Under the pieces are notes generated by a model. It did no database searches, was not told the origin of the DNA, and was given only the letters and a program-made list of their open reading frames with translations. The position numbers and the translations under genes are program-made. Positions 8,715 to 59,982 of a stretch of 64,000 nucleotides of DNA are shown here, piece after piece. Location: contig JBBUAP010000001.1 in assembly GCA_038058635.1 (NCBI GenBank), positions 295,877-359,876 of the forward strand. Reading direction: 5' to 3'. Source of the stretch: Patescibacteria group bacterium. GTDB lineage: Bacteria > Patescibacteriota > UBA1384 > 2-12-FULL-50-11. The stretch's first letter is position 1; each line of letters begins with the position of its first letter.

Positions 8715-10399
8715 TGCAATTGGACGAGGTTAGAAAAAGTTTTGTCGACTACTTTACCGACCTTGGTTATTTACGGCAAGACGAATCAAGCTTAATTCCT
8801 CGTAACGACCCGTCGGTCCTCTTTACTACCGCCGGAATGCAACAGTTCAAGGATTTTTACGCCTCGCCGCTTGATGCTCCGGCCAAATCGGTCGTCACCA
8901 TTCAACCAGTCTTTCGCACCAGCGATATTAGCGAAGTCGGCGACGCCACTCACCTGACAATGTTCGAGATGCTGGGCAATTTTCGTTTCGGCGAATCTTC
9001 GTCAATGAAAATGAAGGAGACGGCGATCAAAGAGGCCTGGAACTTTATCCATAAAAAACTTGGGGTTGTGAAAGAGCGGGTGTCAGCAACAGTTTTTAAG
9101 GGCGATAAATTAACTCCCGGCGATACCGAGTCAGAAGGAATCTGGCAGATGCTGGGCATTGAAGTTAAGCGGATGGGTCGCGACGATAACTTTTGGGGAC
9201 CGGCTGGCGACGACGGCCCGTGCGGTCCGTGTAGTGAAATATATATCGACGGGATTGAAGTTTGGAACCTCGTTTTTACTGAATATTTTAAGAGTCGAGA
9301 CGGAAAGTTTACTAGACTGCCGCAAGCAGGCCTTGATACTGGCTCGGGTCTAGAGCGATTGGCGGCTACCTTACAAAGCCATCGATCAGTCTGGGCGATT
9401 GAGCCGTTTGCTAATTGGGTCGAATCAATCGATCGCTCGCGCGAATACGAGAGCAAGATTATCGTTGATCATTTGCGGGCGATAATATTTCTCATCAGCG
9501 AAGGGATAATGCCAGCCAACAAAGGCCGGGATTACATCTTGCGCCGCCTGATTCGTAAGATTGTCTTCTTAGAGCGTCGGGCTGCTATCAAGGCCGACTT
9601 AGAAAAAATCATCGGTGAGATTCACGCCTACTACGCACCGTCCTACACCCTGACCGATCCCGTCAAAATCGTCAAAATTTTTGCTGACGAACAAGCCCAA
9701 TTTGAGAAAAACTTGGCTCGAGCGATTGGGCACTTGGATCGCTGGGTAACTAGTCAAACCAGCCAACCGTCAAGCGAAGAGATTACGAAGTTGGCTTTTT
9801 ATTTATTTGAGTCGTTCGGTTTCCCCAAAGAATTACTGCTAGAACACCTGATAGATTTGGGCTGGGAGTTTGATACCGACTTGTTCGCCAAGCTGTTTGC
9901 GACTCATCAAGAAATTTCTCGCCAGGGCTCGGAGGGTTTGTTCAAAGGCGGTTTGGCGGATCACGACGAACAGACCATTAAACATCACACCGCTCATCAC
10001 TTACTATTGGCGGCATTGCGCCAAGTATTGGGTGATTCAGTTGTCCAAAAAGGCTCGAATGTCACCAGCGAAAGACTGCGCCTAGATTTTAACTACGACC
10101 GAAAATTGACCGACGACGAACTCAAGAAAGTGGAAGATATTGTGAACGACCAGATTGCCGCCGACTTGCCGGTCGTGAAACAGGAAATGTCCAAAGACGA
10201 AGCCCTGCAATCCGGCGCCCTAGCGGAATTCGGCCAAAAATATGGCGATACAGTTTCTGTTTACACTATTGGAAACTTTTCCAAGGAGCTCTGCGGCGGC
10301 CCGCACATAGAAAAAACCGGCCTGCTCGGCCGGTTCGAAATCCTCAAAGAGGAAGCCTCCTCCCAGGGCGTCCGTCGCATCAAAGCCCGAGTTAGTTAG
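8711..10399 (+). CDS. alaS: alanine--tRNA ligase, compact form lacking the C-Ala domain
   Basis: Class II catalytic core at the N-terminus. Editing-domain motifs HHTAHHLL and CGGPH. Only 562 aa. Confidence 0.8.
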   Translation: MMQLDEVRKSFVDYFTDLGYLRQDESSLIPRNDPSVLFTTAGMQQFKDFYASPLDAPAKSVVTIQPVFRTSDISEVGDATHLTMFEMLGNFRFGESSSMKMKETAIKEAWNFIHKKLGVVKERVSATVFKGDKLTPGDTESEGIWQMLGIEVKRMGRDDNFWGPAGDDGPCGPCSEIYIDGIEVWNLVFTEYFKSRDGKFTRLPQAGLDTGSGLERLAATLQSHRSVWAIEPFANWVESIDRSREYESKIIVDHLRAIIFLISEGIMPANKGRDYILRRLIRKIVFLERRAAIKADLEKIIGEIHAYYAPSYTLTDPVKIVKIFADEQAQFEKNLARAIGHLDRWVTSQTSQPSSEEITKLAFYLFESFGFPKELLLEHLIDLGWEFDTDLFAKLFATHQEISRQGSEGLFKGGLADHDEQTIKHHTAHHLLLAALRQVLGDSVVQKGSNVTSERLRLDFNYDRKLTDDELKKVEDIVNDQIAADLPVVKQEMSKDEALQSGALAEFGQKYGDTVSVYTIGNFSKELCGGPHIEKTGLLGRFEILKEEASSQGVRRIKARVS

Positions 10400-46519: not shown

Positions 46520-47239
46520 CTAGTAGCCGTCAAAATCTTCGGATTTTATCTGGCCCTCGGGCACGCCGAGCTTTTTGGCCAAGGCGATCATCGCCGATAC
46601 TAAATCTGGTGGTCCAGCGGTGTAGAAAACACTTTCAGCCGGATTCTTGACGAATTTCTTAACAATGTCTACATCGATCCGACCGGTTTCACCGATCCAA
46701 TCTTTTGGCGAGGTATCAGTGTATGACGGGATATAGTGAAGGTTAGGGTTGACTCTGGCAGACTCTTTCAATTCAACTTGGTAGGCGGCAGTTTTTGGCG
46801 AGGCGTTGGCATAGAACAGATATATTTCGCGTTTCTCACTAGTCTCCTTGAGCTCGTCGATCATACTCATGAATGGAGTGATTCCGATGCCGCCAACAAG
46901 GAAAACAGCCGGCTTGGTTGCATCTTGACGTAGGGTCATCCGGCCCATCGGCTCTTTGAGCTTAATTGTGGTGCCGAGCGGCATTTCTTTCAGCCAATTC
47001 TTAAAAGCCGTATTGCGCATTCGAGTGGCGATGACGACTTTCTTTTCACCGGGGGCGTTGACGAAAGAAAATGTCCGAATATTACCCTCGGAATCGGTAT
47101 AAGGCGGGTCGATCAAGGTGAAATCGGTATGTTGACCGGCCTTGAACTGGTAGACACTTTCGCCAGTATCAAAGGTAAACTCCATTGTCTCTTCGGCAAT
47201 TTCCCGACGATTCGTTAAGGTCATTAAATAATCCATCAA
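46520..47239 (-). CDS. FNR-like FAD/NAD(P)-binding oxidoreductase
   Basis: FAD-binding beta-barrel plus a GGIGITPF NAD(P)-binding motif. Confidence 0.6.
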   Translation of the reverse strand: MMDYLMTLTNRREIAEETMEFTFDTGESVYQFKAGQHTDFTLIDPPYTDSEGNIRTFSFVNAPGEKKVVIATRMRNTAFKNWLKEMPLGTTIKLKEPMGRMTLRQDATKPAVFLVGGIGITPFMSMIDELKETSEKREIYLFYANASPKTAAYQVELKESARVNPNLHYIPSYTDTSPKDWIGETGRIDVDIVKKFVKNPAESVFYTAGPPDLVSAMIALAKKLGVPEGQIKSEDFDGY

Positions 47240-47282
47240 CCCATCGTTAACCGATTTGGCGTCAACTGCAAGTTCTTATTGC

Positions 47283-47531
47283 GGGCTTGGCGGGAGCGTA
47301 TTCGCACCCTGTTAGCAGGTTTGTCCGAAGACGACCGGCGTTTCGTGGACGCAACTCCCTTTGACAGCAACCCAGACTCTTCGAAGAATGGAGGAGTAGC
47401 ATGAACAAGGCGAACCATTCCGACTTGACCGCATTCTATCAACACATCTCCGAGATGGGCAGACTGGAGATTGCCAAGCGACGAGCCCAGGGCGAAACGA
47501 TTGGTCAGGCACCACTGGGGTTCCGTAAAGT
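47283..47531 (+). repeat. direct repeat copy 1, about 250 bp, roughly 85% identical to 48439-48683
   Basis: Long near-identical stretch (GGGCTTGGCGGGAGCG...CACCACTGGGGTT) that spans the start of a recombinase-fragment ORF. Confidence 0.8.
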
Positions 47532-47790
47532 CCAAGTGAGCGGCAAATCTACTATCGCGCCAGATCCAGAAACCTTCCCGCTGTTGGTGCTGGCACTGCA
47601 GATGCGCCAAGACGGTAGCACGCTCAGGGAGGTTTGTGCGTTCACGGCAAAAAAGGGCTTGCGGTCTAAACGCGGCAAGGTCATCGGGCTGTCGAGCATG
47701 CTGAAGATACTAAGTCGAGTTACTTGCGAAACTCCAAAATCAAGCGTGGTCGGCCAGCCCAATCTCTGCAGAATACTCTCCAGTTCTTGA
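47401..47790 (+). pseudogene. serine-recombinase fragment (alpha-E helix plus start of the recombinase domain only)
   Basis: ISEMGRLEIAKRRAQGETIGQAPLGFRK and the downstream DPETF...LREVCAF segment resemble the linker and recombinase-domain region of large serine recombinases. The catalytic domain and zinc-ribbon domain are absent. Confidence 0.45.
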
Positions 47791-48388
47791 TACCGGCCAC
47801 TTTGCAGAGCCGTTCATAGCTCTTCTCGTCATGCAAGAAGTGTGGGTTTGATTGGCCCTCCACAACGTCGTTTGAGATCCGGCCTTCCGGCCCGGATCGA
47901 GTCCCGCTGGTAATTTCGGCCTCACTTGCCGGTTGATAGGTCATACTCTCTACCAAGGCAAACCCGTTAGGCCGGATTACCCGAAACATTTCTCTCAGAG
48001 CTTGCCGCTGCTCGGTTCCTCCAAGCAACTCGCTGAAAGCCGACCACAGACATATTGCTGCGTCGAAAGAGTTCTCGCTGTATGGCAGTTGAGTCATCGA
48101 ACCCAAATCGAAAATGCTCGAGAGCTTTTCCTTGCGTACAGTTATCCTGGCCCGCTCGATTAGCTTCTTCGAGAGATCTATCCCAGTTACGTGATATCCG
48201 TCTTTAGCAAGGAGAATTGCAATCCGACCATAGCCGCAGCCTACGTCCAGCACGTCAGCATGGGGTGTCAGCATGGCTTTGATAATATTCGCCGTTGCCT
48301 TATCCCAGTCTGGACGACTCCGGGAAGCAAGTATGTCCGGTCCGATCGTGTTGTAGAAGTCTCTGTTGATCTGTTCGGAGTCCGCCAT
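47720..48388 (-). CDS. class I SAM-dependent methyltransferase (small-molecule type)
   Basis: Motif I VLDVGCGYGR. No DPPY/NPPW motif, so not a DNA methyltransferase. Confidence 0.7.
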   Translation of the reverse strand: MADSEQINRDFYNTIGPDILASRSRPDWDKATANIIKAMLTPHADVLDVGCGYGRIAILLAKDGYHVTGIDLSKKLIERARITVRKEKLSSIFDLGSMTQLPYSENSFDAAICLWSAFSELLGGTEQRQALREMFRVIRPNGFALVESMTYQPASEAEITSGTRSGPEGRISNDVVEGQSNPHFLHDEKSYERLCKVAGIKNWRVFCRDWAGRPRLILEFRK

Positions 48389-48438
48389 GGCAACAATCTA
48401 CCATAAAGGAAGTTCTTTATATATGTGTTCACTTTGGT

Positions 48439-48683
48439 GGGCTTGGCGGGAGCGCATTCGCACCCTGTTAGCAGGTTTGTCCGAAGACGACCGGCGTTTC
48501 GCGGATGCAACTCCTTTTGACAGCATCCCAGACTCTTCGAAGAATGGAGGAGTAGCATGAGCAAGCAGAGCGATCTTACTGCCTTCTACCAAACCATCTC
48601 CGAGATGGGCAGGCTGGAGATTGCCAGGAGGCGAGCCGAAGGGGAGACAATTGGTCCGGCACCACTGGGGTTTCGAAAGGTCG
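48439..48683 (+). repeat. direct repeat copy 2
   Basis: Pairs with 47283-47531. Confidence 0.8.
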
Positions 48684-48754
48684 TGGTGGTCGGCGCCCGA
48701 CACGTGGCCCAAGATTCCCCAACCGGTTGCTCCCCCGTTGCTCCCCACGGGTAA
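48557..48754 (+). pseudogene. second, shorter serine-recombinase fragment
   Basis: MSKQSDLTAFYQTISEMGRLEIARRRAEGETIGPAPLGFRKV is homologous to the N-terminus of the 47401 ORF, then it diverges and stops. Confidence 0.4.
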
Positions 48755-48804
48755 ATCGCAAAGCCCAATGAGACACTCCAAAAGCCGATTTTGAACCTAA
48801 AACC

Positions 48805-49092
48805 TGGAGCCGATGAGCGGATTTGAACCGCTGACCTGCTGTTTACAAACCACCGGCAAGCATGCCCGGCGGGGTAGGTCCTGGTTCCTCAGAGGTCCTT
48901 CGAGACCCCCAGATCATTGTTGGGAGTATTGCATCCAATATGTCAGGCGACACCGACAAACGAAACCGGACTGGCAGACGCCTCGGTCGTGAAGTCCAAG
49001 AATCTCAGAATCCAGTCGCCCCGATGAAAGACGGGGAGACACGGGCTGGGCCCCAAGCCCGAAGGGTCGATAATGGGAAACCTCGCATCGGC
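48805..49092 (-). ncRNA. candidate structured RNA with a tRNA-like 3' end (tmRNA-like, or a remnant of a tRNA/tmRNA integration target)
   Basis: Minus strand: canonical T-arm AGCGG-TTCAAAT-CCGCT, acceptor 3' strand CATCGGC, then T-CCA. The exact complement GCCGATG sits 281 nt upstream and is followed by a TCGAC motif. The roughly 390-nt region is GC-rich with no convincing ORF. Confidence 0.25.
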
Positions 49093-49189
49093 GAGGGCAG
49101 ACATCGGAAAGAACCAGGCCTCGAAGGGAGGACATCAATCCCACACGTAACGTTCGTCGAACACGACTCTAGCCTCCCGAGGGAGCGCT

Positions 49190-50413
49190 CTAGTCAGCCG
49201 GTCTAGCGCCCGTGAGCCCAAAGAGGATCGCACCCGGCCTGTCAGCCGCATCCAACCGCCGCGCAATCTCCAAAGCACCCCAAATGGCATAGGCGGACTC
49301 GGGAGCAGGGGCAATATGCTCACATTCTTCAAAGAGTGCGGCCGCACTCTTCGCTTCCCTGAGCGAGCACGTTAGGCTTGTTAGCCTACCCCTTGACGCG
49401 AGCTCAACGAGCAGAGGAGTCGTGACAGGATACGAGAGACCGGGCGCCCAAGTTTCTTCAGAACTCTTGATGCCCTTGGCATCCGGAAGGCAGGTTGTTA
49501 AACTCCGATATAGCGGACCTTGAGACCCAAACGTACGAACGGGTTTTATGTCGCGGTGTCCAAGTTTATGAGCGTGGTCCGGCTCCACCGCCACAAACTC
49601 GGGGGCCGCAACGTCTCCGCCAACGGGATGATCCAACAAGAAGGGCAGCACCATGCCTCCAAAATTGGTGCCGCCACCACAGCAGCCTACAATCGCATCG
49701 GGAACAACAGACATGCTTGCAAGCTGCTCCTTGGACTCCTGCCCGATTACACTATTAAAACCAACAACAGAATTCAGGAAACAGCCAACTGCGAATCTCG
49801 CCCTCCGCTCCACTAACAGATCCAGGCTTGGTCGGACTTCTGATGCCTCTATGACTCCACCCCATCTATGCACCTGCTCCAGCAACTGCTTGCGACTTGC
49901 CAACAGTGCTTGGGGGGCCATGATCGTGGCCCTGATGCCAAATTGGGCGCAAGCCCATGCTACCGCCACACCCCAATAACCGGAGAGTGTAAAGGCTATC
50001 AACTCCTGAATACCCTCTTGCTTCGCAAACCAGGCTTGCGCTAAGGCCGCGTTGGCCTTGTAGCTGTGCACGGGCGATGCGGTTTCGTCCTTGAACAGGA
50101 TCGTGCTTCGAATGCCAAGAGACCGGCACAGTGTCTTCGCTTCACGTAATGGCGTCGGCCGCCAATCAGCGAGCATTCTGTGCAGGTCGCCGGGAATCTG
50201 TCTTCGCTCCGACCCAACCTCAAGCTGCCAAGCTCCATCCACCAGGATCTTCGCGTGTTGCCCTGGGTCATATCGCTCCGTACACTCCCCGTCTATCCAA
50301 GGTCCCAACTTTAGAACTCCTGGCCACTCTCCAGGAACGCGCCAGCATATCGGAACCCCGATCGTCCGCGCTCGAGTGTCTAAGGGCGATCCACTGTTCA
50401 TTTTCACAAGCAT
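49190..50413 (-). CDS. TrpB2-type PLP-dependent tryptophan-synthase-beta-like enzyme
   Basis: PLP-lysine context LFKDETASPVHSYKANAA, a glycine-rich GCCGGGTNFGG loop and an N-terminal extension as in TrpB2. Confidence 0.65.
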   Translation of the reverse strand: MLVKMNSGSPLDTRARTIGVPICWRVPGEWPGVLKLGPWIDGECTERYDPGQHAKILVDGAWQLEVGSERRQIPGDLHRMLADWRPTPLREAKTLCRSLGIRSTILFKDETASPVHSYKANAALAQAWFAKQEGIQELIAFTLSGYWGVAVAWACAQFGIRATIMAPQALLASRKQLLEQVHRWGGVIEASEVRPSLDLLVERRARFAVGCFLNSVVGFNSVIGQESKEQLASMSVVPDAIVGCCGGGTNFGGMVLPFLLDHPVGGDVAAPEFVAVEPDHAHKLGHRDIKPVRTFGSQGPLYRSLTTCLPDAKGIKSSEETWAPGLSYPVTTPLLVELASRGRLTSLTCSLREAKSAAALFEECEHIAPAPESAYAIWGALEIARRLDAADRPGAILFGLTGARPAD

Positions 50414-50415
50414 AT

Positions 50416-51279
50416 CTACAAAAACTCTATTTGACCAGCATCACAAGATACTAAAGCAGGATGCCTCTTGGGAAGCGAAGTGAACCATTCTTCTAGTAAC
50501 CGCTCGAAATCCACCTTTTGCATCTTCGGTCCCCACAAACCGGCACCCCCGGAACTTAGCTCGTAGGCTCTTTTGTAAGTTTCCGCGGTAAGACGATCGA
50601 CTACGCTTTGAAGAGTTCCGGCTGCCCCACAATACGACTTCAATAAGGCAATCAAGACAACCTCAGCTTCGTTACGTCCCTCGCGCCATTTATCGAACAC
50701 GCCGACATAAAACGCAGCCCCTGCAGGATCAGGATCCCAATATTGCCATCCGACAGTCTCTTCTCTGGATCCAGAAGGCGGAGCACCAGCAATGAGCACT
50801 CTATCATCGCTGACTGAAAACCGAATAGGAAGATCCTGAATCGCCCAAAAGCGTATTTTTCCCGGGTTAGGTGCGTTTCGTACGTACATGAAATGCAAAC
50901 GCCAAAGGAGGTGCGGAAACATAGCGTCCAACGCAACCGGCCCGCAAAAGTCTGATTCCACACCATTGCGCAGGATTGCTGACATCGCTTCCTCCATCTC
51001 GCTTGAAACCCACCAAACCCGCGCTACCGATACTACGCGTTTCCTAGCGGAGACATATAACTCCATAGCTTGACGCAAGTAGAATCGCAGGCCCTGGAAC
51101 TGCTGAAACTCGGCGAGGAACTGCTTGTACTCTTTCCTGGCGACGCTCAAATCGTCCTTGACAAGTCTAATCTCCCTTAACACGGCGAGCATATCCACTC
51201 TTGCTCTCAAATACAACCACACCGTGAGCAGGAGGGATAGGATCGAGGAAAGTGACGCGATAATTACAAAGACTTCCAT
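50416..51279 (-). CDS. hypothetical protein with an N-terminal TM helix (GC-rich island cargo)
   Basis: The start is taken at MEVFVIIASL. The longer 51426 start would overlap the upstream permease gene. Confidence 0.4.
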   Translation of the reverse strand: MEVFVIIASLSSILSLLLTVWLYLRARVDMLAVLREIRLVKDDLSVARKEYKQFLAEFQQFQGLRFYLRQAMELYVSARKRVVSVARVWWVSSEMEEAMSAILRNGVESDFCGPVALDAMFPHLLWRLHFMYVRNAPNPGKIRFWAIQDLPIRFSVSDDRVLIAGAPPSGSREETVGWQYWDPDPAGAAFYVGVFDKWREGRNEAEVVLIALLKSYCGAAGTLQSVVDRLTAETYKRAYELSSGGAGLWGPKMQKVDFERLLEEWFTSLPKRHPALVSCDAGQIEFL

Positions 51280-51352
51280 AGCGTCCTCTTGCGAACAATA
51301 ATTGACATATCGACCCCTGAAATGGACATGATGGCGCTTGACCTGAACATCA

Positions 51353-52114
51353 TTACATGCCCTGCCAGTGAATGAAACGACGCTCGAGGAATGTGATAAT
51401 CCGGTTGAGCAGGAGCCCGATAACACCTATAACAACAATAGCTACCCACATATCGGGAACTCGATATGCGAAGCGCGAATCCTGGATGCGTTGGCCGAGA
51501 CCGCCGACTCCTCCGCCGAGCATCTCAGTAACGACAATCAGGACTAGTGAATTTGAAAGGGAAAGGCGTGCTGCGGAGAGCAGGGGCGACGACATCTCCC
51601 AGGCAATGACCTTGGTAAATACGATCCAGGGACCAGCGCCGAGTGTCTTAAGATAAGCCTCTCGCTGAGGTCGGCAAGCGCGCACCCCGTAGATAATATT
51701 GATGACGAAAATCATGGCACAGCCGAAGGCCGCTGCCGCGACCTGGGAACCACTCCCTATTCCTAGCCATAAGACAAAAGCTGGAAAAAGCGCTGAGACG
51801 GGTATGGAACGAGCAAAGTCGACCGGCAACTCAAATGCGTCAGACAGCCAGTTAATGCGACCCAATAGTAGGCCCAGGGGGACACCGATGCCAAATCCTA
51901 GGGCGAAGGCGAGCGCTGCCTTACCCAGAGTGCTTCCAGTATCCTCCCAAAAAGTCGAGGATCGCAAGTTTTCAATAAGCGCTTCCATCCATTCTACTGG
52001 AGCGGCAAGCACGTACGTTGCGTTAGGAAAGAGAATAGGAAGCAAGAGCCACAAGAAAAAGAGAATCAAAAGCCCGGCAATCCGAAGAGGCAAAGCCCGC
52101 AATCCAGTCCGCAA
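51353..52114 (-). CDS. ABC transporter permease (SsuC/TauC-type, binding-protein-dependent)
   Basis: EAA-loop region and 6 TM helices with SsuC-like layout. Confidence 0.7.
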   Translation of the reverse strand: MRTGLRALPLRIAGLLILFFLWLLLPILFPNATYVLAAPVEWMEALIENLRSSTFWEDTGSTLGKAALAFALGFGIGVPLGLLLGRINWLSDAFELPVDFARSIPVSALFPAFVLWLGIGSGSQVAAAAFGCAMIFVINIIYGVRACRPQREAYLKTLGAGPWIVFTKVIAWEMSSPLLSAARLSLSNSLVLIVVTEMLGGGVGGLGQRIQDSRFAYRVPDMWVAIVVIGVIGLLLNRIITFLERRFIHWQGM

Positions 52115-52508
52115 CTTTGCTGAGAGGGAGATCTACTTCTGAGGAGCTAAGAAGGTCCCGGACTTGACTCTCAGCCTCGGAGACTGGCACATGGCGGAGT
52201 TCCAGCGGAAGCCTCAAGTTGCCTAAATTCGAACGCCAAGGAAGGAGAGTTTGCCTATAATCCTGAAATAGATAGCCTACGCTGTCGCCGCTCAACGGGC
52301 TCCCAGCAAGCAAGACTTCTCCACTCTTCGGCTTGATGAGCCCCGCTACAGTGTTCAGGATCGTTGTCTTGCCTGACCCGTTCATTCCAAGCAGTACGCC
52401 AACGGACGACGCGGGCACGTTGAAGTTAATGTCGGCAACAACACTGCTACCGTTGCTGTAAGAAACCTCGAGGTTTGAAACCGTCAGGCTATCCAGAAGG
52501 GAGCTCAT
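52023..52508 (-). pseudogene. truncated ABC ATPase (SsuB/TauB-like)
   Basis: Walker A GMNGSGKTT and Q-loop YLFQD are present. The frame ends before the LSGGQ signature and Walker B, and it overlaps the permease gene by about 90 nt. Confidence 0.5.
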
Positions 52509-52605
52509 GGGGATTTACCCAGAACTAGCTGCTGAACGTCAATCGTACCTTTTAGCTCTCCGTTTAGACGGAGCAACTCTGCAAACTTGTTCACCAGAGT
52601 CGTGT

Positions 52606-52780
52606 CTATTCGTGCACCAATCCGGTAAGCTGCATGTCAGAACGAAGTTCGATTAGCTCCGCGTCCTTTGGAAGCTGAAGCTCTGGGCGAAGACCCAAGC
52701 GTGCGTATAGCCGCATTGTTGAGCCTGGAAATGTCCCGATTCGCTTTCCTTTGAGTTGTGCAACTCGTTGGATGTCGCCA
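52606..52780 (-). pseudogene. possible remnant of an SsuA-like substrate-binding protein
   Basis: Only the C-terminal roughly 55 aa of the 52606-53133 ORF (KGKRIGTFPGSTMRLYARLGLRPELQL) look binding-protein-like. The rest is antisense to the recombinase gene. Confidence 0.2.
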
Positions 52781-54445
52781 AGTCCACGATCAGCCATCTC
52801 ATCCGCGGGCTGGGCAATCCCATGTATATCACGGCTCGCCGCGTCGTCAAGTGTCTGGAGCATCACCTTGGTCGCAGACTCCACCCCGACGAGGTGTTCT
52901 CGCCCGATGGGATGTATCCCACGTCGTCGGTCTGCAGTCTCTGTGGCTGCCACGGCTGCCTGCCGGATTGCATTTTTAACGACGACGGCTCTTGACGTAG
53001 TCGCTGAACTGACCGAAGCGCACTCCGCCAAAGCGCCCGGGACACGTCCGGTCTTTGCTGACCTACTCGCCCGGATCGAGCGAGGCGAAGCCGAAGGGAT
53101 CGTCTGCTGGAGTATCAACCGACTGGCCCGCAATCCCGTCGATTCTGGTCAGTTGAGCTGGCTCTTGCAGCGAGGGGTGCTCAAGTCCATCCGAACCATC
53201 GATCGAGAATATCTGCCGGAAGACAATGTCCTGCTGATGGCGGTCGAATCAGGCGTTGCCAACCAATACATCCTCGATCTGCGCAAAGCCGTCATCCGCG
53301 GCATGGAAGGCAAAGCCGCCCGAGGCTGGATTCCCAATCGACCTCCCCAAGGGTACGGCGTCAATCCGCTGACCAAGGAGATCGATCCCATAGAGCCGCA
53401 GTTCCAACTTCTTCGACAGGCCTGGGACTTGCTTCTAACGGGCGCCTACACGGTGCCCCAGATACGATCAAGGCTACGAACCTGGGGCTACACCTATGGG
53501 AAGCCCGGCGCACCGGCTAAACCCCTGTTCACCGAATCCCACCTCTACCGAATCTTTGACAACCGCTTCTATTGTGGCACCTTCACCTTTCGCGGCCAGA
53601 CCTACCAAGGCCGGCACCGGCTGATGGTCAGCCCAGAGGAATTTGATCGGGCCCAGCGGATCTTGCACAAAGACAACCGCATCCAGCCCCAGAAGCGTGA
53701 ATTCCCTTTCACCGGCCTCATCCGTTGCGGGCGCTGCGGTTGCCTGGTGACCGCCGAACGCAAGATCAAACACTACAAAACGACCGCCCGAACCGCGGCC
53801 TATGAGTACTACCACTGCACCCACCGCAAGGGTGACTGCAAAGAGGTCAGCGTCACCGGCCCATACATCAACTCCACAATCGCCGGAAAGTTGGAGAGCG
53901 TCCTGATCGACCCGGAATTCGGCCAATGGCTTCTGAAGGCATTTGAGCGCGATTGGGACGAACAGCCTTCCGTTGACCCCAATTTGATCAAACAGCACCA
54001 AGAACACGTTCGTGCAACCGAACAGAAACTCGAACGATTGATCCAGCTTCGGCTGGCCCGGGAACTGGACGCCGAGGAGTTCAGCCGTATCAAAACCCAA
54101 ATTCAGGAAGAGCTGGCCGATGGCCGAAGACAGCTTGAGAGTTTGTCGAAGCGAGCCTCAACCGGGCGACGGGCTCTCATCAATGCCGTTCAGTTCAGCC
54201 TCAATGCTCCAAGGCATTTTGCCGCAAACGACATTCATCTGCAGAGATACGTCGCAACCAGGTTCGGCATTCGCTACGTTCTCACTCTGGGAAAGCTGGA
54301 AATCACACCGCATCCGCTGCTACCGAAATTGGCCGCGCTAGAACCTCCAAAATCGCCGCGCAATATGGTTGGAGCCGGGGCTTTGCGCCCCAACGCTCCC
54401 ATTGAGTGGTCCCAGCGGGAGTCGAACCCGCGATCTTCGCCATGA
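52751..54445 (+). CDS. large serine recombinase (resolvase/invertase-related integrase) with an atypical N-terminus
   Basis: Resolvase-domain C-terminal half (GIVCWSINRLARN), recombinase domain (RPPQGYG...) and zinc-ribbon cysteines (CGRCGC...HYHC). Its 3' end overlaps tRNA-Glu. A canonical Y-x-R-V-S catalytic motif was not found. Confidence 0.65.
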   Translation: MSCATRWMSPSPRSAISSAGWAIPCISRLAASSSVWSITLVADSTPTRCSRPMGCIPRRRSAVSVAATAACRIAFLTTTALDVVAELTEAHSAKAPGTRPVFADLLARIERGEAEGIVCWSINRLARNPVDSGQLSWLLQRGVLKSIRTIDREYLPEDNVLLMAVESGVANQYILDLRKAVIRGMEGKAARGWIPNRPPQGYGVNPLTKEIDPIEPQFQLLRQAWDLLLTGAYTVPQIRSRLRTWGYTYGKPGAPAKPLFTESHLYRIFDNRFYCGTFTFRGQTYQGRHRLMVSPEEFDRAQRILHKDNRIQPQKREFPFTGLIRCGRCGCLVTAERKIKHYKTTARTAAYEYYHCTHRKGDCKEVSVTGPYINSTIAGKLESVLIDPEFGQWLLKAFERDWDEQPSVDPNLIKQHQEHVRATEQKLERLIQLRLARELDAEEFSRIKTQIQEELADGRRQLESLSKRASTGRRALINAVQFSLNAPRHFAANDIHLQRYVATRFGIRYVLTLGKLEITPHPLLPKLAALEPPKSPRNMVGAGALRPNAPIEWSQRESNPRSSP

Positions 54446-54480
54446 AAAGGCGACGTCCTAGGCCACTAGACGATGGGACC
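54407..54480 (-). tRNA. tRNA-Glu (anticodon UUC)
   Basis: Minus strand: acceptor GGTCCCA/TGGGACC, anticodon stem TCGCC/GGCGA with loop TTTTCAT, T-arm GCGGG-TTCGACT-CCCGC. Discriminator A. Confidence 0.8.
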
Positions 54481-54684
54481 ATATTTTTGCCCTAATACTT
54501 AACTAACTTACAGGTTTTTGCCACGGTTGGCCTGCGGCCAAGTCCTAGGCCATTGTCGCCCCTCGTGAACTCGGGGCTCGCTTGTCGCTCTGCAGCTCCA
54601 AGTAGACGATGGGACCAATACGCCTATTTTACGAATTCTAATGAGTAAATCGAATTCGTACTCGAGTTCATTTTACCTTTAAAA

Positions 54685-59593: not shown

Positions 59594-59982
59594 GGGGCTG
59601 TAATGGCTTCGACGGGAACTTTAACAACCAAATTTGCAAGCGGAGAGTACCTGCCTTAGAGTACAAAAAAATACGTGCAAACGTTATGAGCAAAGTCAAA
59701 GCTACTGTAGCAAACGCGTTTGGTAGCTTCGTCGCTCAACCAGTATTCGCCTAAACTCGAATACCGTTTCTCTGTTTGATCTCTACTGAAACAGAGACGC
59801 GTCATAATCGTAGGGTAGTAATTGGGTTTTCATCGGCCCTTTCACAAGATTAAGATGATGCTGTTGCTGGGTGTTTCGTCTGTTTTTAGCCCAATGACCT
59901 AAGAAAAGTAAGCAGTCTAAGCTTGTAGTAGATTTGGTTCGTTTGTTTTCGGACGCGGGTTCGACTCCCGCCAGCTCCACCA
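59594..59982 (+). ncRNA. ssrA: tmRNA (ssrA)
   Basis: 5' end GGGGCTGTAATGGCTTCGACGGG and 3' end GGACGCGGGTTCGACTCCCGCCAGCTCCACCA, both near-identical to canonical tmRNA termini. The internal tag frame GCA AAC GCG ... GCC TAA would read ANAFGSFVAQPVFA. Confidence 0.85.

What the first reader, a model, noticed from the sequence alone, without database searches (positions are those of the whole stretch)
47240..54480. GC-rich, decayed integrated element abutting tRNA-Glu: serine recombinase, duplicated recombinase fragments in direct repeats, TrpB2-like enzyme, dead ssuABC
From about 47240 to the 3' end of tRNA-Glu (54407), composition shifts sharply. All six frames are open, which is typical of higher GC, and codon usage differs from the flanks. 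The block contains a large serine recombinase whose 3' end overlaps tRNA-Glu. It also holds two truncated recombinase fragments, each embedded in a roughly 250-bp direct repeat (47283-47531 and 48439-48683). Cargo includes a SAM methyltransferase, a TrpB2-like PLP enzyme and a hypothetical membrane protein. An ssuABC-like transporter is represented by an intact permease, a truncated ATPase and a fragmentary binding protein, the last apparently clipped by the recombinase gene. This looks like serial integration and decay at a tRNA site. The direct repeats may be former att-proximal ends.
Basis: partly seen in the sequence, partly recalled or inferred. Interest (0 to 1): 0.55.

Follow-up and report, generated by a model that had tools for sequence, protein, structure and literature searches.

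The report
Decayed serine-integrase island at tRNA-Glu
This is the dead remnant of one or more mobile elements that a serine integrase inserted at the very end of a tRNA-Glu gene in a groundwater Berkelbacteria genome. The locus is ordinary, but it exposes a little-described integrase family that targets tRNA and tmRNA genes from a recombination site inside its own gene.

Summary
Window 47240-54405 is 54.9% GC against 49.1% elsewhere. It is absent from related Berkelbacteria and abuts tRNA-Glu.

It contains:
- a large serine recombinase (LSR) gene that reads 40 nt into the tRNA;
- a direct repeat of about 260 bp;
- a methyltransferase gene;
- a five-gene cassette (binding protein, ATPase, permease, hypothetical, TrpB-like enzyme) whose transporter part is wrecked.

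New points:
1. The recombinase is dead. Its first 30 codons, including the catalytic serine, were lost in a deletion of about 790 bp.
2. Each repeat holds the displaced last 39 codons of such a recombinase gene, then a small downstream ORF homologous to the LSR recombinase domain. In intact elements both lie directly after the recombinase gene. They are therefore attL-type junctions.
3. The family's attP lies inside the 3' end of the recombinase gene. Crossover falls in a GTGG core at the 3' terminus of the tRNA or tmRNA. All four junction types were found.
4. There is no tRNA duplicate, as expected for a serine integrase.

The locus is ordinary and the integrase family is a moderately interesting variant. 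Interest 0.42.

The parts
47281..47284 (+). attL-A core (GCGG). To its left is the upstream region of the oxidoreductase gene. To its right is the P-type arm GCTTGGCGGGAGCG.
   Evidence: Junction alignments. The G73-type GCGG matches attB in L003, L004 and L008.
47283..47404 (+). Repeat copy A, part 1: the displaced last 39 codons of a serine-recombinase gene (..AWRERIRTLLAGLSEDDRRFVDATPFDSNPDSSKNGGVA*). Its stop codon overlaps the next start codon (ATGA).
   Evidence: It matches the C-terminal tails of the full-length homologs P0002 and P0003. It is 95.8% identical to copy B.
47401..47790 (+). ORF129, a small stand-alone protein homologous to the N-terminal part of the LSR recombinase domain. 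In intact elements it is the gene directly after the recombinase gene. Its last ~25 codons overlap the methyltransferase gene and are not conserved.
   Evidence: tblastn places homologs directly after the recombinase gene in L038-L043 and L055. It matches phrog_95 integrase positions 222-309 of 651 at E 1.9e-6. hhalign against the recombinase family gives E 5e-4. There are 122 representative clusters, mostly 100-160 aa. dN/dS against the L005 copy is 0.135.
47720..48388 (-). SAM-dependent methyltransferase gene (222 aa), lying between the two attL-type junctions.
   Evidence: Pfam Methyltransf_25, E 1.2e-22. NCBIfam gives generic methyltransferase hits, all below their cut-offs.
48437..48440 (+). 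attL-B core (GTGG).
48439..48560 (+). Repeat copy B, part 1: a second displaced recombinase C-terminal tail (WAWRERIRTLLAGLSEDDRRFADATPFDSIPDSSKNGGVA*).
48557..48754 (+). Truncated second copy of the ORF129-type gene (65 aa). Homology ends at about 48695.
   Evidence: dS against copy A is 0.87.
48805..48857 (-). tRNA-Thr(UGU)-like pseudogene. Both acceptor strands, the anticodon loop and the T-arm are present. The D-arm and the 5' strand of the anticodon stem are deleted. It is preceded at 48772-48816 by a possible recombinase 3' remnant (DTPKADFEPKTWSR*). It may be a fossil attR from a tRNA-Thr site.
   Evidence: Read directly from the sequence. Rfam gives only a tRNA-like mascRNA match at E 0.12. 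The fold is at z -1.87. ARAGORN does not call it. This part is weak.
49190..50413 (-). TrpB-like PLP enzyme (407 aa), full length relative to its few close homologs. It is the last gene of the cargo cassette.
   Evidence: PALP, E 5.5e-32. NF009057 scores 202.7 bits against a cut-off of 366. Homologs of 399-418 aa share 46-55% identity. Cassette synteny is seen in L058 and L060.
50416..51279 (-). Conserved hypothetical protein of the cassette (about 287 aa; the ORF can extend to 51426). No family match.
   Evidence: It is 42-44% identical to the ~295-aa gene at the same cassette position in L058 and L060. No Pfam, NCBIfam or PHROG hit.
51353..52114 (-). ABC permease, intact.
   Evidence: BPD_transp_1, E 1.2e-18. 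SaoP profile positions 11-249 of 251. 60-66% identity to the cassette permeases.
52023..52508 (-). ABC ATPase remnant. Only residues 7-142 of about 252 remain. The signature motif, Walker B and H-loop are missing.
   Evidence: ABC_tran profile positions 2-91 of 137. Taurine ATPase profile positions 2-116 of 255. tblastn against cassette ATPases.
52520..52911 (-). Substrate-binding protein (NMT1-type) pseudogene. Residues ~97-193 and ~304-339 remain. The N-terminus and an internal block are deleted.
   Evidence: tblastn with the L058 and L060 binding proteins gives E 6e-21, 3e-21 and 8e-4. The fragment itself has no Pfam hit.
52973..54445 (+). Large serine recombinase gene, 5'-truncated. It corresponds to residues 31-517 of a 528-aa homolog. 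Codons 1-30, with the catalytic Ser, are absent. The last 12 codons plus the stop are antisense tRNA-Glu.
   Evidence: tblastn with P0001 gives 91.6% identity over residues 31-517, and nothing matches residues 1-30 in any frame. Alignment A2. The Pfam Resolvase match starts only at profile position 31. Compared with L008 the window lacks about 790 bp.
54406..54409 (+). attR core (GTGG): the junction of the recombinase 3' arm (..CCCATTGA) with the 3' terminus of tRNA-Glu.
54406..54480 (-). tRNA-Glu(UUC), intact. Its discriminator base is A, where most relatives have G.
   Evidence: ARAGORN. Rfam tRNA, 64.9 bits. Comparison of flanks.

Best explanation
Window 47283-54409 is the non-functional remnant of one or more integrative elements of a large-serine-recombinase (LSR) family. 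They inserted at the extreme 3' end of the tRNA-Glu gene of a Candidatus Berkelbacteria genome.

In this family the element's attachment site (attP) lies inside the 3' coding end of the recombinase gene, at the codons ..E-W-A-W-R-E... Strand exchange occurs in a short core (GTGG, or GCGG in some alleles). That core coincides with the last bases of the tRNA or tmRNA acceptor end.

Integration therefore has these consequences:
- The tRNA stays intact and no tRNA duplicate is made.
- The recombinase gene now reads antisense into the tRNA, which gives it a new short C-terminus.
- The recombinase's original ~39-codon tail is carried to the far end of the element. So is the translationally coupled downstream gene, ORF129, a small protein homologous to the recombinase domain.

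The window holds two such far-end (attL-type) junctions. This fits accretion of two related elements at the same tRNA (inferred), followed by deletions (shown). The deletions removed the first 30 codons of the recombinase gene, which include the catalytic serine, and about 685 bp upstream of it. They also removed most of the binding-protein gene and the distal half of the ABC ATPase gene.

The GC-rich cargo is a conserved five-gene cassette: NMT1-type binding protein, ATPase, permease, hypothetical protein, TrpB-like PLP enzyme. Only its last three genes are still whole. The element can no longer move by itself.
For: Foreignness. The composition shift is real. Related Berkelbacteria lack the block. 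L008 has the empty arrangement: pilin gene, 136-aa gene, terminator, tRNA-Glu.

Recombinase identity and death. It has the Pfam Resolvase (partial), Recombinase and Zn_ribbon_recom domains. It is 91.6% identical to residues 31-517 of the 528-aa L008/P0001 protein. Residues 1-30 (MRYILYARKSSESE..) are absent from every frame. L008 17742-17893 matches window 52774-52925, which shows a deletion of about 790 bp in the window.

attP inside the recombinase gene.
- Among the 120 listed homologs, many C-termini switch at W..R[ED] to antisense-tRNA peptides (..R[ED]SNP[RQ]..). Many others keep a conserved free tail (..W[AS][WM]R[DE].IRTL..). The rest are truncated or too divergent to place by eye.
- The recombinase 3' end overlaps tRNA-Gln in L045 and tRNA-Arg in L047. 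In L008 it overlaps tmRNA.
- In intact elements the tail is followed, with an ATGA start-stop overlap in L038/L039, by the ORF129 homolog.
- The window repeats start exactly at the core.

All four junction types share the core.
- attB: L005 ..CCTTCA GTGG TCCCAGCGGGAG.
- attP: L038 and L041 ..GA GTGG GCNTGGCGTGA.
- attL: L051 has the L005-type flank, then GTGG, then GCTTACCGAGAACG. Window copies A and B are also attL-type.
- attR: window ..CCCATTGA GTGG TCCCAGCGGGAG.

A second independent pair supports this. Homology between L008 attR and the window's empty tmRNA site starts exactly at GTGG.

Serial events rather than a local duplication. The tails are 95.8% identical, but the adjoining ORF parts have dS 0.87. 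Multiple tails also occur in L051 and L056, and scars occur in L004, L005 and L048.

Cargo. The intact cassette is present in L058 and L060, and the truncations were mapped by tblastn.

Precedent. An att site inside a serine integrase gene is described for rumA-targeting streptococcal ICEs (PMC4701971).
Against: - No excised circle or empty-site read was observed for this element. Every junction is inferred from comparing different genomes.
- The left flanks of attL-A and attL-B do not match the ancestral flank downstream of tRNA-Glu seen in L008. Further rearrangement must be assumed, such as the replacement of the 136-aa gene by an oxidoreductase gene.
- How a second element could integrate into an already occupied site is unclear. 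For serine integrases, attP x attR is not a canonical reaction.
- L041 carries a full-tail recombinase gene about 5 kb from a tRNA-Lys. Not every family member sits at a tRNA junction.
- For divergent integrated members (L045, L047), no far-end tail or ORF129 was found within 10 kb.
- A 121-nt insert flanked by a 15-nt repeat on the 5' side of tRNA-Glu is unexplained. It hints at other events at this tRNA.
Confidence: 0.85

Rival explanations
1. There was a single integration event, and the two repeat copies arose by a local segmental duplication or gene conversion inside the island. Two successive integrations are not needed.
For: The first 118 nt of the two copies are 95.8% identical. Only one recombinase gene and one attR are present. 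Both copies have the same orientation, 1156 bp apart.
Against: Divergence along the repeat is very uneven: 4% in the tail against dS 0.87 in the adjoining ORF part, with a 6-nt indel. That does not fit one recent duplication. Both copies start at the same core, each with its own short flank resembling an att half-site. Multiple tails in series also occur in unrelated contigs L051 and L056.
Confidence: 0.25
2. The block was not inserted by the serine recombinase. It arrived by homologous or illegitimate recombination, or through a different integrase acting on the 5' half of tRNA-Glu. In that case a ready-made 'island plus tRNA-Glu' segment came from a related strain.
For: The window has a 121-nt insert (54482-54602) between the functional tRNA-Glu and the ancestral upstream region. 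It is flanked by a 15-nt direct repeat of the tRNA 5' end and holds a second D-arm-like piece. Relatives have only 8-24 nt there. So the present tRNA-Glu copy may not sit at the ancestral position.
Against: The recombinase-tRNA junction is at exactly the same core as in the tmRNA-integrated relative and in the attB, attP and attL comparisons. No other integrase gene lies in or near the block. This rival is also compatible with the element having first integrated through the LSR in a donor strain.
Confidence: 0.1
3. The block is a metagenome assembly chimera, joined at the conserved tRNA sequence.
For: The window comes from a metagenome contig. tRNA genes are classic mis-join points, and the composition changes exactly there.
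Against: Eight contigs carry the deacetylase protein. Six are listed as places similar to the 136-kb ENA contig, and an independent Logan assembly (ERR3858135) spans the island-to-deacetylase junction. Both sides of the island are syntenic with relatives. The left side carries att-type junctions that match the recombinase family on the right side.
Confidence: 0.03

Closest known systems
Streptococcal ICEs integrated in rumA by a single large serine integrase (Ambroset et al. 2016, PMC4701971)
   Same: The att site lies inside the 3' end of the serine integrase gene. Integration swaps the integrase C-terminus, so the integrated and excised forms encode different C-termini. Direct repeats are very short.
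   Different: There the target is a protein-coding gene (rumA), whose 3' end is also altered. Here the target is the terminal bases of a tRNA or tmRNA gene, which stays intact. Here a translationally coupled small ORF homologous to the recombinase domain follows the integrase gene. The hosts here are Patescibacteria and other uncultured lineages.
Dehalococcoides ssrA-specific genomic islands with the CcrB-like serine recombinase DsiB (McMurdie et al. 2011, PMC3146451)
   Same: A serine recombinase is associated with integration at a tDNA (tmRNA). Islands accrete in tandem downstream of the target, and many decayed islands lack an integration module.
   Different: [quoted passage not shown] Their integration module sits next to attL and includes a second small catalytic serine recombinase (DsiA). 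Here the core is only 4 bp at the acceptor terminus. The recombinase gene itself spans the junction, and the small partner lacks a catalytic domain.
Tycheposons of Prochlorococcus (Hackl et al., bioRxiv 10.1101/2020.12.28.424599)
   Same: [quoted passage not shown] A minority (27 of 937) carry a large serine recombinase instead of a tyrosine recombinase.
   Different: They are mostly tyrosine-recombinase elements. In the passages I read, no att site inside the recombinase gene is reported.
Phage serine integrases with solved structures: SPbeta SprA/YokA (9dxh) and Listeria A118 integrase (4kis)
   Same: They share the domain order: catalytic domain, recombinase domain, zinc ribbon. They are the best PDB sequence matches, at E 8e-13 and 1.5e-5.
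   Different: The similarity is only distant. My understanding, from general knowledge, is that those phages target protein-coding genes and have attP outside the integrase gene. Their directionality factors (SprB, gp44) are unrelated in sequence to ORF129, as far as was tested here.
Myxophage Mx8 and SSV1-type archaeal integrases (attP within the integrase gene)
   Same: Integration alters or splits the integrase gene because attP is intragenic. Mx8 is cited for this in PMC4701971.
   Different: From general knowledge, these are tyrosine recombinases with long identity segments, so their chemistry and att architecture differ.

Membership tests
Large serine recombinase (serine integrase) | N-terminal resolvase catalytic domain with the serine nucleophile (Y-x-R-x-S motif) | tested here: not met
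   The Pfam Resolvase match covers only profile positions 31-143. Homologs start MRYILYARKSSESE.., but the window copy aligns only from residue 31, and residues 1-30 are found in no frame. This is a truncated member by descent and not a functional one.
Large serine recombinase (serine integrase) | Recombinase domain (PF07508) followed by a zinc-ribbon domain (PF13408) | tested here: met
   PF07508 at E 3.6e-7 and PF13408 at E 8.7e-7, both above their gathering scores. phrog_95 integrase at E 4e-50. The zinc-ribbon cysteines are invariant in alignment A2.
Large serine recombinase (serine integrase) | Short att sites with a crossover core of a few bp and no long identity between attP and attB | tested here: met
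   attB, attP, attL and attR share only GTGG or GCGG at the junction. There is no duplicate of the tRNA 3' end. The exact 2-bp crossover could not be determined.
Large serine recombinase (serine integrase) | Coiled-coil motif inside the zinc-ribbon domain, which controls directionality | not tested
   No coiled-coil prediction or structure model was made.
Classical tDNA-targeting genomic island (Islander type) | Intact tRNA or tmRNA gene at one end, with an integrase gene on board | tested here: met
   tRNA-Glu scores 64.9 bits. The recombinase gene is adjacent and overlaps it.
Classical tDNA-targeting genomic island (Islander type) | A displaced tDNA fragment forming a direct repeat at the far end, with a tyrosine integrase | tested here: not met
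   The only match to the 30-nt tRNA-Glu 3' end at up to 3 mismatches is the gene itself. The integrase is of the serine family.
Elements with the att site inside their own integrase gene (rumA-ICE / Mx8 type) | The integrase C-terminus differs between free and integrated forms, and the displaced 3' end of the integrase gene lies at the opposite end of the integrated element | tested here: met
   Both free-tail and antisense-tRNA C-termini occur across the 120 listed homologs. Tails lie at 47283 and 48439, in the same orientation as the recombinase gene and on the far side of the island.
TrpB2 / TrpB-like PLP enzyme (NF009057, TIGR01415) | Score above the curated family cut-off | tested here: not met
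   202.7 bits against a cut-off of 366, and 180.3 against 518.85. Only four close homologs exist (46-55% identity). Ordinary TrpB2 proteins share about 30% identity. It belongs to the PALP fold and is a divergent sister group rather than TrpB2 proper.
NMT1-type (Ssu/Tau/Sao-like) ABC importer | A complete set of binding protein, ATPase (Walker A, signature, Walker B) and permease | tested here: not met
   The permease is complete. The ATPase keeps residues 7-142 of 252. The binding protein keeps residues 97-193 and about 304-339. The intact set exists in L058 and L060, where the binding proteins carry NMT1 and NMT1_2.

The most novel reading that the evidence does not exclude
The window is a fossil of a large clade of serine integrases that I did not find described in four literature searches. 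The recombinase search returned 1342 proteins at E <= 0.001, many from Patescibacteria and some from Fimbriimonadaceae.

The strongly supported part is this. The clade targets the terminal bases of tRNA and tmRNA genes from an attP embedded in the 3' coding end of its own gene.

The speculative part is a built-in state switch. Integration would exchange the integrase's ~40-residue C-terminal tail. It would also uncouple a translationally coupled small protein homologous to the recombinase domain (ORF129). The free and integrated forms would then express different recombination machinery. ORF129 could be a new kind of directionality or accessory factor.
Probability: 0.3. Interest if true: 0.65.

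Novelty: new variant of a known kind. Interest (0 to 1): 0.42.

Why it matters
For this genome the finding is routine. It is a dead island at a tRNA hot spot, and it documents horizontal gene flow into a streamlined CPR (Candidate Phyla Radiation) bacterium.

The wider value is the integrase family behind it.
- In 2014, serine integrases were stated not to be known to target tRNA genes (PMC4383910). Only scattered exceptions have been described since.
- This family shows a consistent, sequence-readable rule: a GTGG core at the tDNA acceptor end, with the T-arm forming one half-site.
- Closely related integrases (91% nucleotide identity) use two different targets, tRNA-Glu and tmRNA, that share an identical T-arm sequence.

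Such integrases could be useful in three ways. They mark mobile elements in Patescibacteria. They could serve as compact integration tools aimed at universally conserved sites without disrupting them. They also offer a test case for how an intragenic attP and a coupled small protein homologous to the recombinase domain influence directionality.

The conserved cassette of transporter, hypothetical protein and TrpB-like enzyme is a small lead of its own for an unknown uptake-plus-PLP pathway.

Tried and rejected
1. None was found. The only extra 17-mer hit inside the island (47894-47910) is inverted and lies inside the methyltransferase coding region. I treat it as chance or as an unexplained fossil.

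2. ORF129 as a direct fragment of the resident recombinase. BLASTP against it finds nothing (E 0.15). Homology to the recombinase domain shows only at profile level, and the ORF is a conserved stand-alone gene.

3. A possible retained catalytic serine in the called N-terminus (MGCIPRRRSAVS..). Rejected, because this stretch has no homology to the family N-terminus.

4. The exact-protein look-ups of the oxidoreductase and of P0001 found nothing. The far end of the intact L008 element could therefore not be fetched.

5. Far-end tails or ORF129 copies in the divergent integrated elements L044, L045 and L047. None was detected with my queries. This is uninformative, because those sequences are too divergent.

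6. The 14-nt similarity of 47728-47741 to the recombinase 'LEPPK' region. I judged it chance, because it lies in the conserved C-terminus of the methyltransferase gene.

7. The tRNA-Thr-like piece does not reach significance with Rfam or ARAGORN. It is kept only as a possible fossil.

8. An assembly chimera was considered and rejected.

Full report
**Source and host.** The window is identical to part of a 136-kb contig from Hainich groundwater (0.1 µm fraction). The deacetylase protein next to tRNA-Glu is encoded on eight contigs. Six are listed as places similar to that contig, and one comes from an independent Logan assembly. The nearest genomes are Candidatus Berkelbacteria MAGs, whose deacetylase is 76-90% identical. 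Gene order on both sides of the finding is shared with them.

**Check of the observation.**
- *Composition.* Region 47240-54405 is 54.9% GC against 49.1% for the rest. The highest-GC 7.2-kb window of the 64 kb starts at 47301. Tetranucleotide distance doubles there. GC3 of the island genes is 0.53-0.67, against 0.48-0.52 in host genes.
- *tRNA and recombinase.* tRNA-Glu(UUC) is at 54406-54480 on the minus strand. A plus-strand ORF ending at 54445 has the Resolvase, Recombinase and Zn_ribbon_recom domains.
- *Direct repeat.* It is real and spans 47283-47544 and 48439-48694.

**The recombinase is dead.**
- Its homologs (1342 at E <= 0.001) begin MRYILYARKSSESEDRQVQSIDDQ.., which includes the serine nucleophile region.
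- The window copy aligns only from residue 31 of the 528-aa P0001/L008 protein, at 91.6% identity over residues 31-517. Residues 1-30 occur in no frame. The Pfam Resolvase match likewise starts at profile position 31.
- In L008 the sequence homologous to window 52774-52925 lies about 690 bp upstream of the recombinase start codon. The window has therefore lost about 790 bp.
- dN/dS between the two copies is 0.13 at dS 0.33. Most of their divergence thus accumulated under selection, and the truncation is probably late.

**What the repeats are.**
- Each repeat starts with GG GCT TGG CGG GAG CG.., which encodes (W)AWRERIRTLLAGLSEDDRRF.DATPFDS..*. This is the C-terminal tail of full-length family members such as P0002 and P0003.
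- The tail's stop codon overlaps the start codon (ATGA) of a small ORF. In copy A this ORF is 129 aa. In copy B it is cut to 65 aa.
- In intact elements (L038-L040, L041-L043, L055), the recombinase gene with this tail is followed directly by a homolog of that ORF.
- The ORF is homologous to the N-terminal part of the LSR recombinase domain:
  - phrog_95 positions 222-309 of 651, E 1.9e-6;
  - hhalign against the recombinase family, E 5e-4;
  - a weak Pfam Recombinase match.
- It belongs to a family of 122 representative clusters. Most are stand-alone proteins of 100-160 aa.
- The 'recombinase fragments' are therefore a severed recombinase tail plus the recombinase's normal downstream partner gene.

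**Where the att site is.**
- Among the 120 listed homologs, many C-termini change at the W..R[ED] codons into peptides such as RESNPR or RDSNPQ. These are the antisense translation of a tRNA acceptor and T-arm. Many others keep the free tail. The rest are truncated or too divergent to place by eye.
- ARAGORN confirms that the recombinase 3' end overlaps tRNA-Gln in L045 and tRNA-Arg in L047. In L008 the last 20 residues are antisense tmRNA.
- Aligning the junctions gives all four site types around one core:
  - attB, L005: ..TTCTCCTTCA GTGG TCCCAGCGGGAGTCG
  - attP, L041: ..CCCGTAGA GTGG GCCTGGCGTGACCG
  - attL, L051: the same flank as L005, then GTGG GCTTACCGAGAACG
  - attL, window copy A: ..TTATT GCGG GCTTGGCGGGAGCG
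  - attL, window copy B: ..CTTTG GTGG GCTTGGCGGGAGCG
  - attR, window: ..CCCATTGA GTGG TCCCAGCGGGAGTCG
- A second, independent pair agrees. Homology between L008 attR (..CCCATTGA GTGG AGCTGGCGGGAGTTG) and the window's unoccupied tmRNA 3' end (..TTTTCGTG GTGG AGCTGGCGGGAGTCG) starts exactly at GTGG.
- tRNA-Glu and tmRNA share the same T-arm sequence (CGGGAGTCGAACCCGCG). This plausibly explains why 91%-identical integrases use both targets.
- No duplicate of the tRNA 3' end exists, as expected when identity is limited to a 4-bp core.

**History of the locus (partly inferred).**
- L008 shows the empty state: pilin gene, 136-aa gene, terminator, tRNA-Glu.
- L004, L048, L005 and L050 carry one tail-plus-ORF129 scar 0.6-1.7 kb from the tRNA and no recombinase gene. 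Their tRNA-proximal flank aligns with a decayed recombinase 3' end.
- L051 and L056 carry two tails.
- The window has two attL-type junctions but only one recombinase gene and one attR.
- The two tails are 95.8% identical, while the adjoining ORF parts have dS 0.87. I therefore favour two related elements accreting at the same tRNA over a simple local duplication. This is not proven.
- A tRNA-Thr-like pseudogene at 48805-48857, preceded by a possible recombinase 3' remnant, may be a further fossil junction carried in with the cargo. The evidence is weak.

**Cargo.**
- The TrpB-like enzyme has only four close homologs (46-55% identity, 399-418 aa). Ordinary TrpB2 proteins share about 30% identity with it.
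- In two unrelated metagenome contigs its homolog is the last gene of a cassette: NMT1 binding protein, ABC ATPase, permease, ~295-aa hypothetical, TrpB-like enzyme.
- The window has the same order on the minus strand:
  - the binding protein is reduced to residues 97-193 and about 304-339;
  - the ATPase is reduced to residues 7-142 of 252;
  - the other three genes are full length.
- The intact element in L008 is also GC-rich: 56% against 49% for its host.

**Comparison with what is known.**
- An att site inside a serine integrase gene, with exchange of the integrase C-terminus, is described for rumA-targeting streptococcal ICEs. Mx8 is cited there as a tyrosine-integrase case (PMC4701971).
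- Serine recombinases at tDNAs are documented for Dehalococcoides ssrA islands. Those have a 20-bp repeat and tandem accretion (PMC3146451).
- A minority of tycheposons also carry a large serine recombinase.
- The Islander paper stated that serine integrases were not known to target tRNA genes (PMC4383910).
- Two further searches, aimed at Patescibacteria and the Candidate Phyla Radiation, returned nothing that describes this family.
- The locus is therefore a decayed member of a new variant of a known kind. The variant combines three features: tDNA-terminal targeting without tDNA duplication, an intragenic attP, and a coupled partner gene homologous to the recombinase domain.

**Verdict.** The element itself is inert. 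Interest is moderate (0.42) and comes from the integrase family rather than from this locus.

Noticed in passing
window 54482-54602, with flanking repeats at 54467-54481 and 54603-54617: A 121-nt insert lies between the functional tRNA-Glu and the ancestral upstream region. It is absent from L003, L004 and L005. It is flanked by a perfect 15-nt direct repeat of the tRNA 5' end (TAGACGATGGGACCA). It also holds a second D-arm-like 17-mer (54536-54552) and a small hairpin. This looks like a scar of another event at the 5' side of the tRNA. Its origin is unexplained.
   Followed up: partly
window 48805-48857 (minus strand) and 48772-48816: A tRNA-Thr(UGU)-like pseudogene. Both acceptor strands, the anticodon loop and the T-arm are present, but the D-arm is deleted. 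A short ORF end resembling the recombinase C-terminus (..TWSR*) reads into it. It may be a fossil attR from a tRNA-Thr site in an earlier host.
   Followed up: partly
window 59920-59982 (tmRNA 3' end): The window's tmRNA gene is an unoccupied attB for the closely related element that sits at the tmRNA of Berkelbacteria RIFCSPLOWO2_01_FULL_50_28 (L008). Homology between the two starts exactly at GTGG.
   Followed up: yes
window 46520-47239: The FAD/NAD-binding oxidoreductase gene next to the island is absent from all related loci. Relatives L004, L005, L008 and L048 carry a conserved 131-136-aa coiled-coil membrane protein gene at that position instead. The non-ancestral region therefore starts at about 46430, although the GC shift starts only at 47240.
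   Followed up: partly
window 47894-47910 (minus strand), inside the methyltransferase gene: A 17-mer that matches the tRNA-Glu T-arm and acceptor sequence at 15 of 17 positions, in inverted orientation. About 0.16 such matches are expected per 64 kb, and the other hits are real tRNA or tmRNA T-arms. It is either chance or a fossil.
   Followed up: no
L058 4542-9206 and L060 1616-6334: A conserved five-gene cassette: NMT1 binding protein, ABC ATPase, permease, ~295-aa protein with no family, and a divergent TrpB-like PLP enzyme. It occurs in unrelated metagenome contigs. In L058 it lies next to a tyrosine integrase gene. It may be an uncharacterised uptake-plus-beta-substitution pathway that travels on mobile elements.
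   Followed up: partly
protein P0177 (668 aa): A single protein in which the ORF129-type domain (residues 556-656) sits at the C-terminus of a 668-aa protein, about the length of a recombinase plus ORF129. I did not check what its N-terminal part is.
   Followed up: no
L041 10001-17016: A full-tail family member sits inside an element that carries TraG/TrwB-like, Replic_Relax, ArdC and HTH_17 genes. It lies about 5 kb from a tRNA-Lys that it does not overlap. Some family members therefore ride on conjugative or mobilisable elements, and their integration state is unclear.
   Followed up: no
window 54407 compared with L003, L004, L006-L009 and L011: The discriminator base of tRNA-Glu is A in the window and in L005, but G in the other relatives. 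In the window the A may have been contributed by the element's GAGTGG arm.
   Followed up: partly
L004 about 9840-9900 and L005 about 9806-9865: The flank immediately downstream of tRNA-Glu in genomes that look 'empty' aligns, with a 17-nt gap, to the last ~55 nt of the recombinase gene. Even these sites therefore seem to be decayed attR scars.
   Followed up: partly
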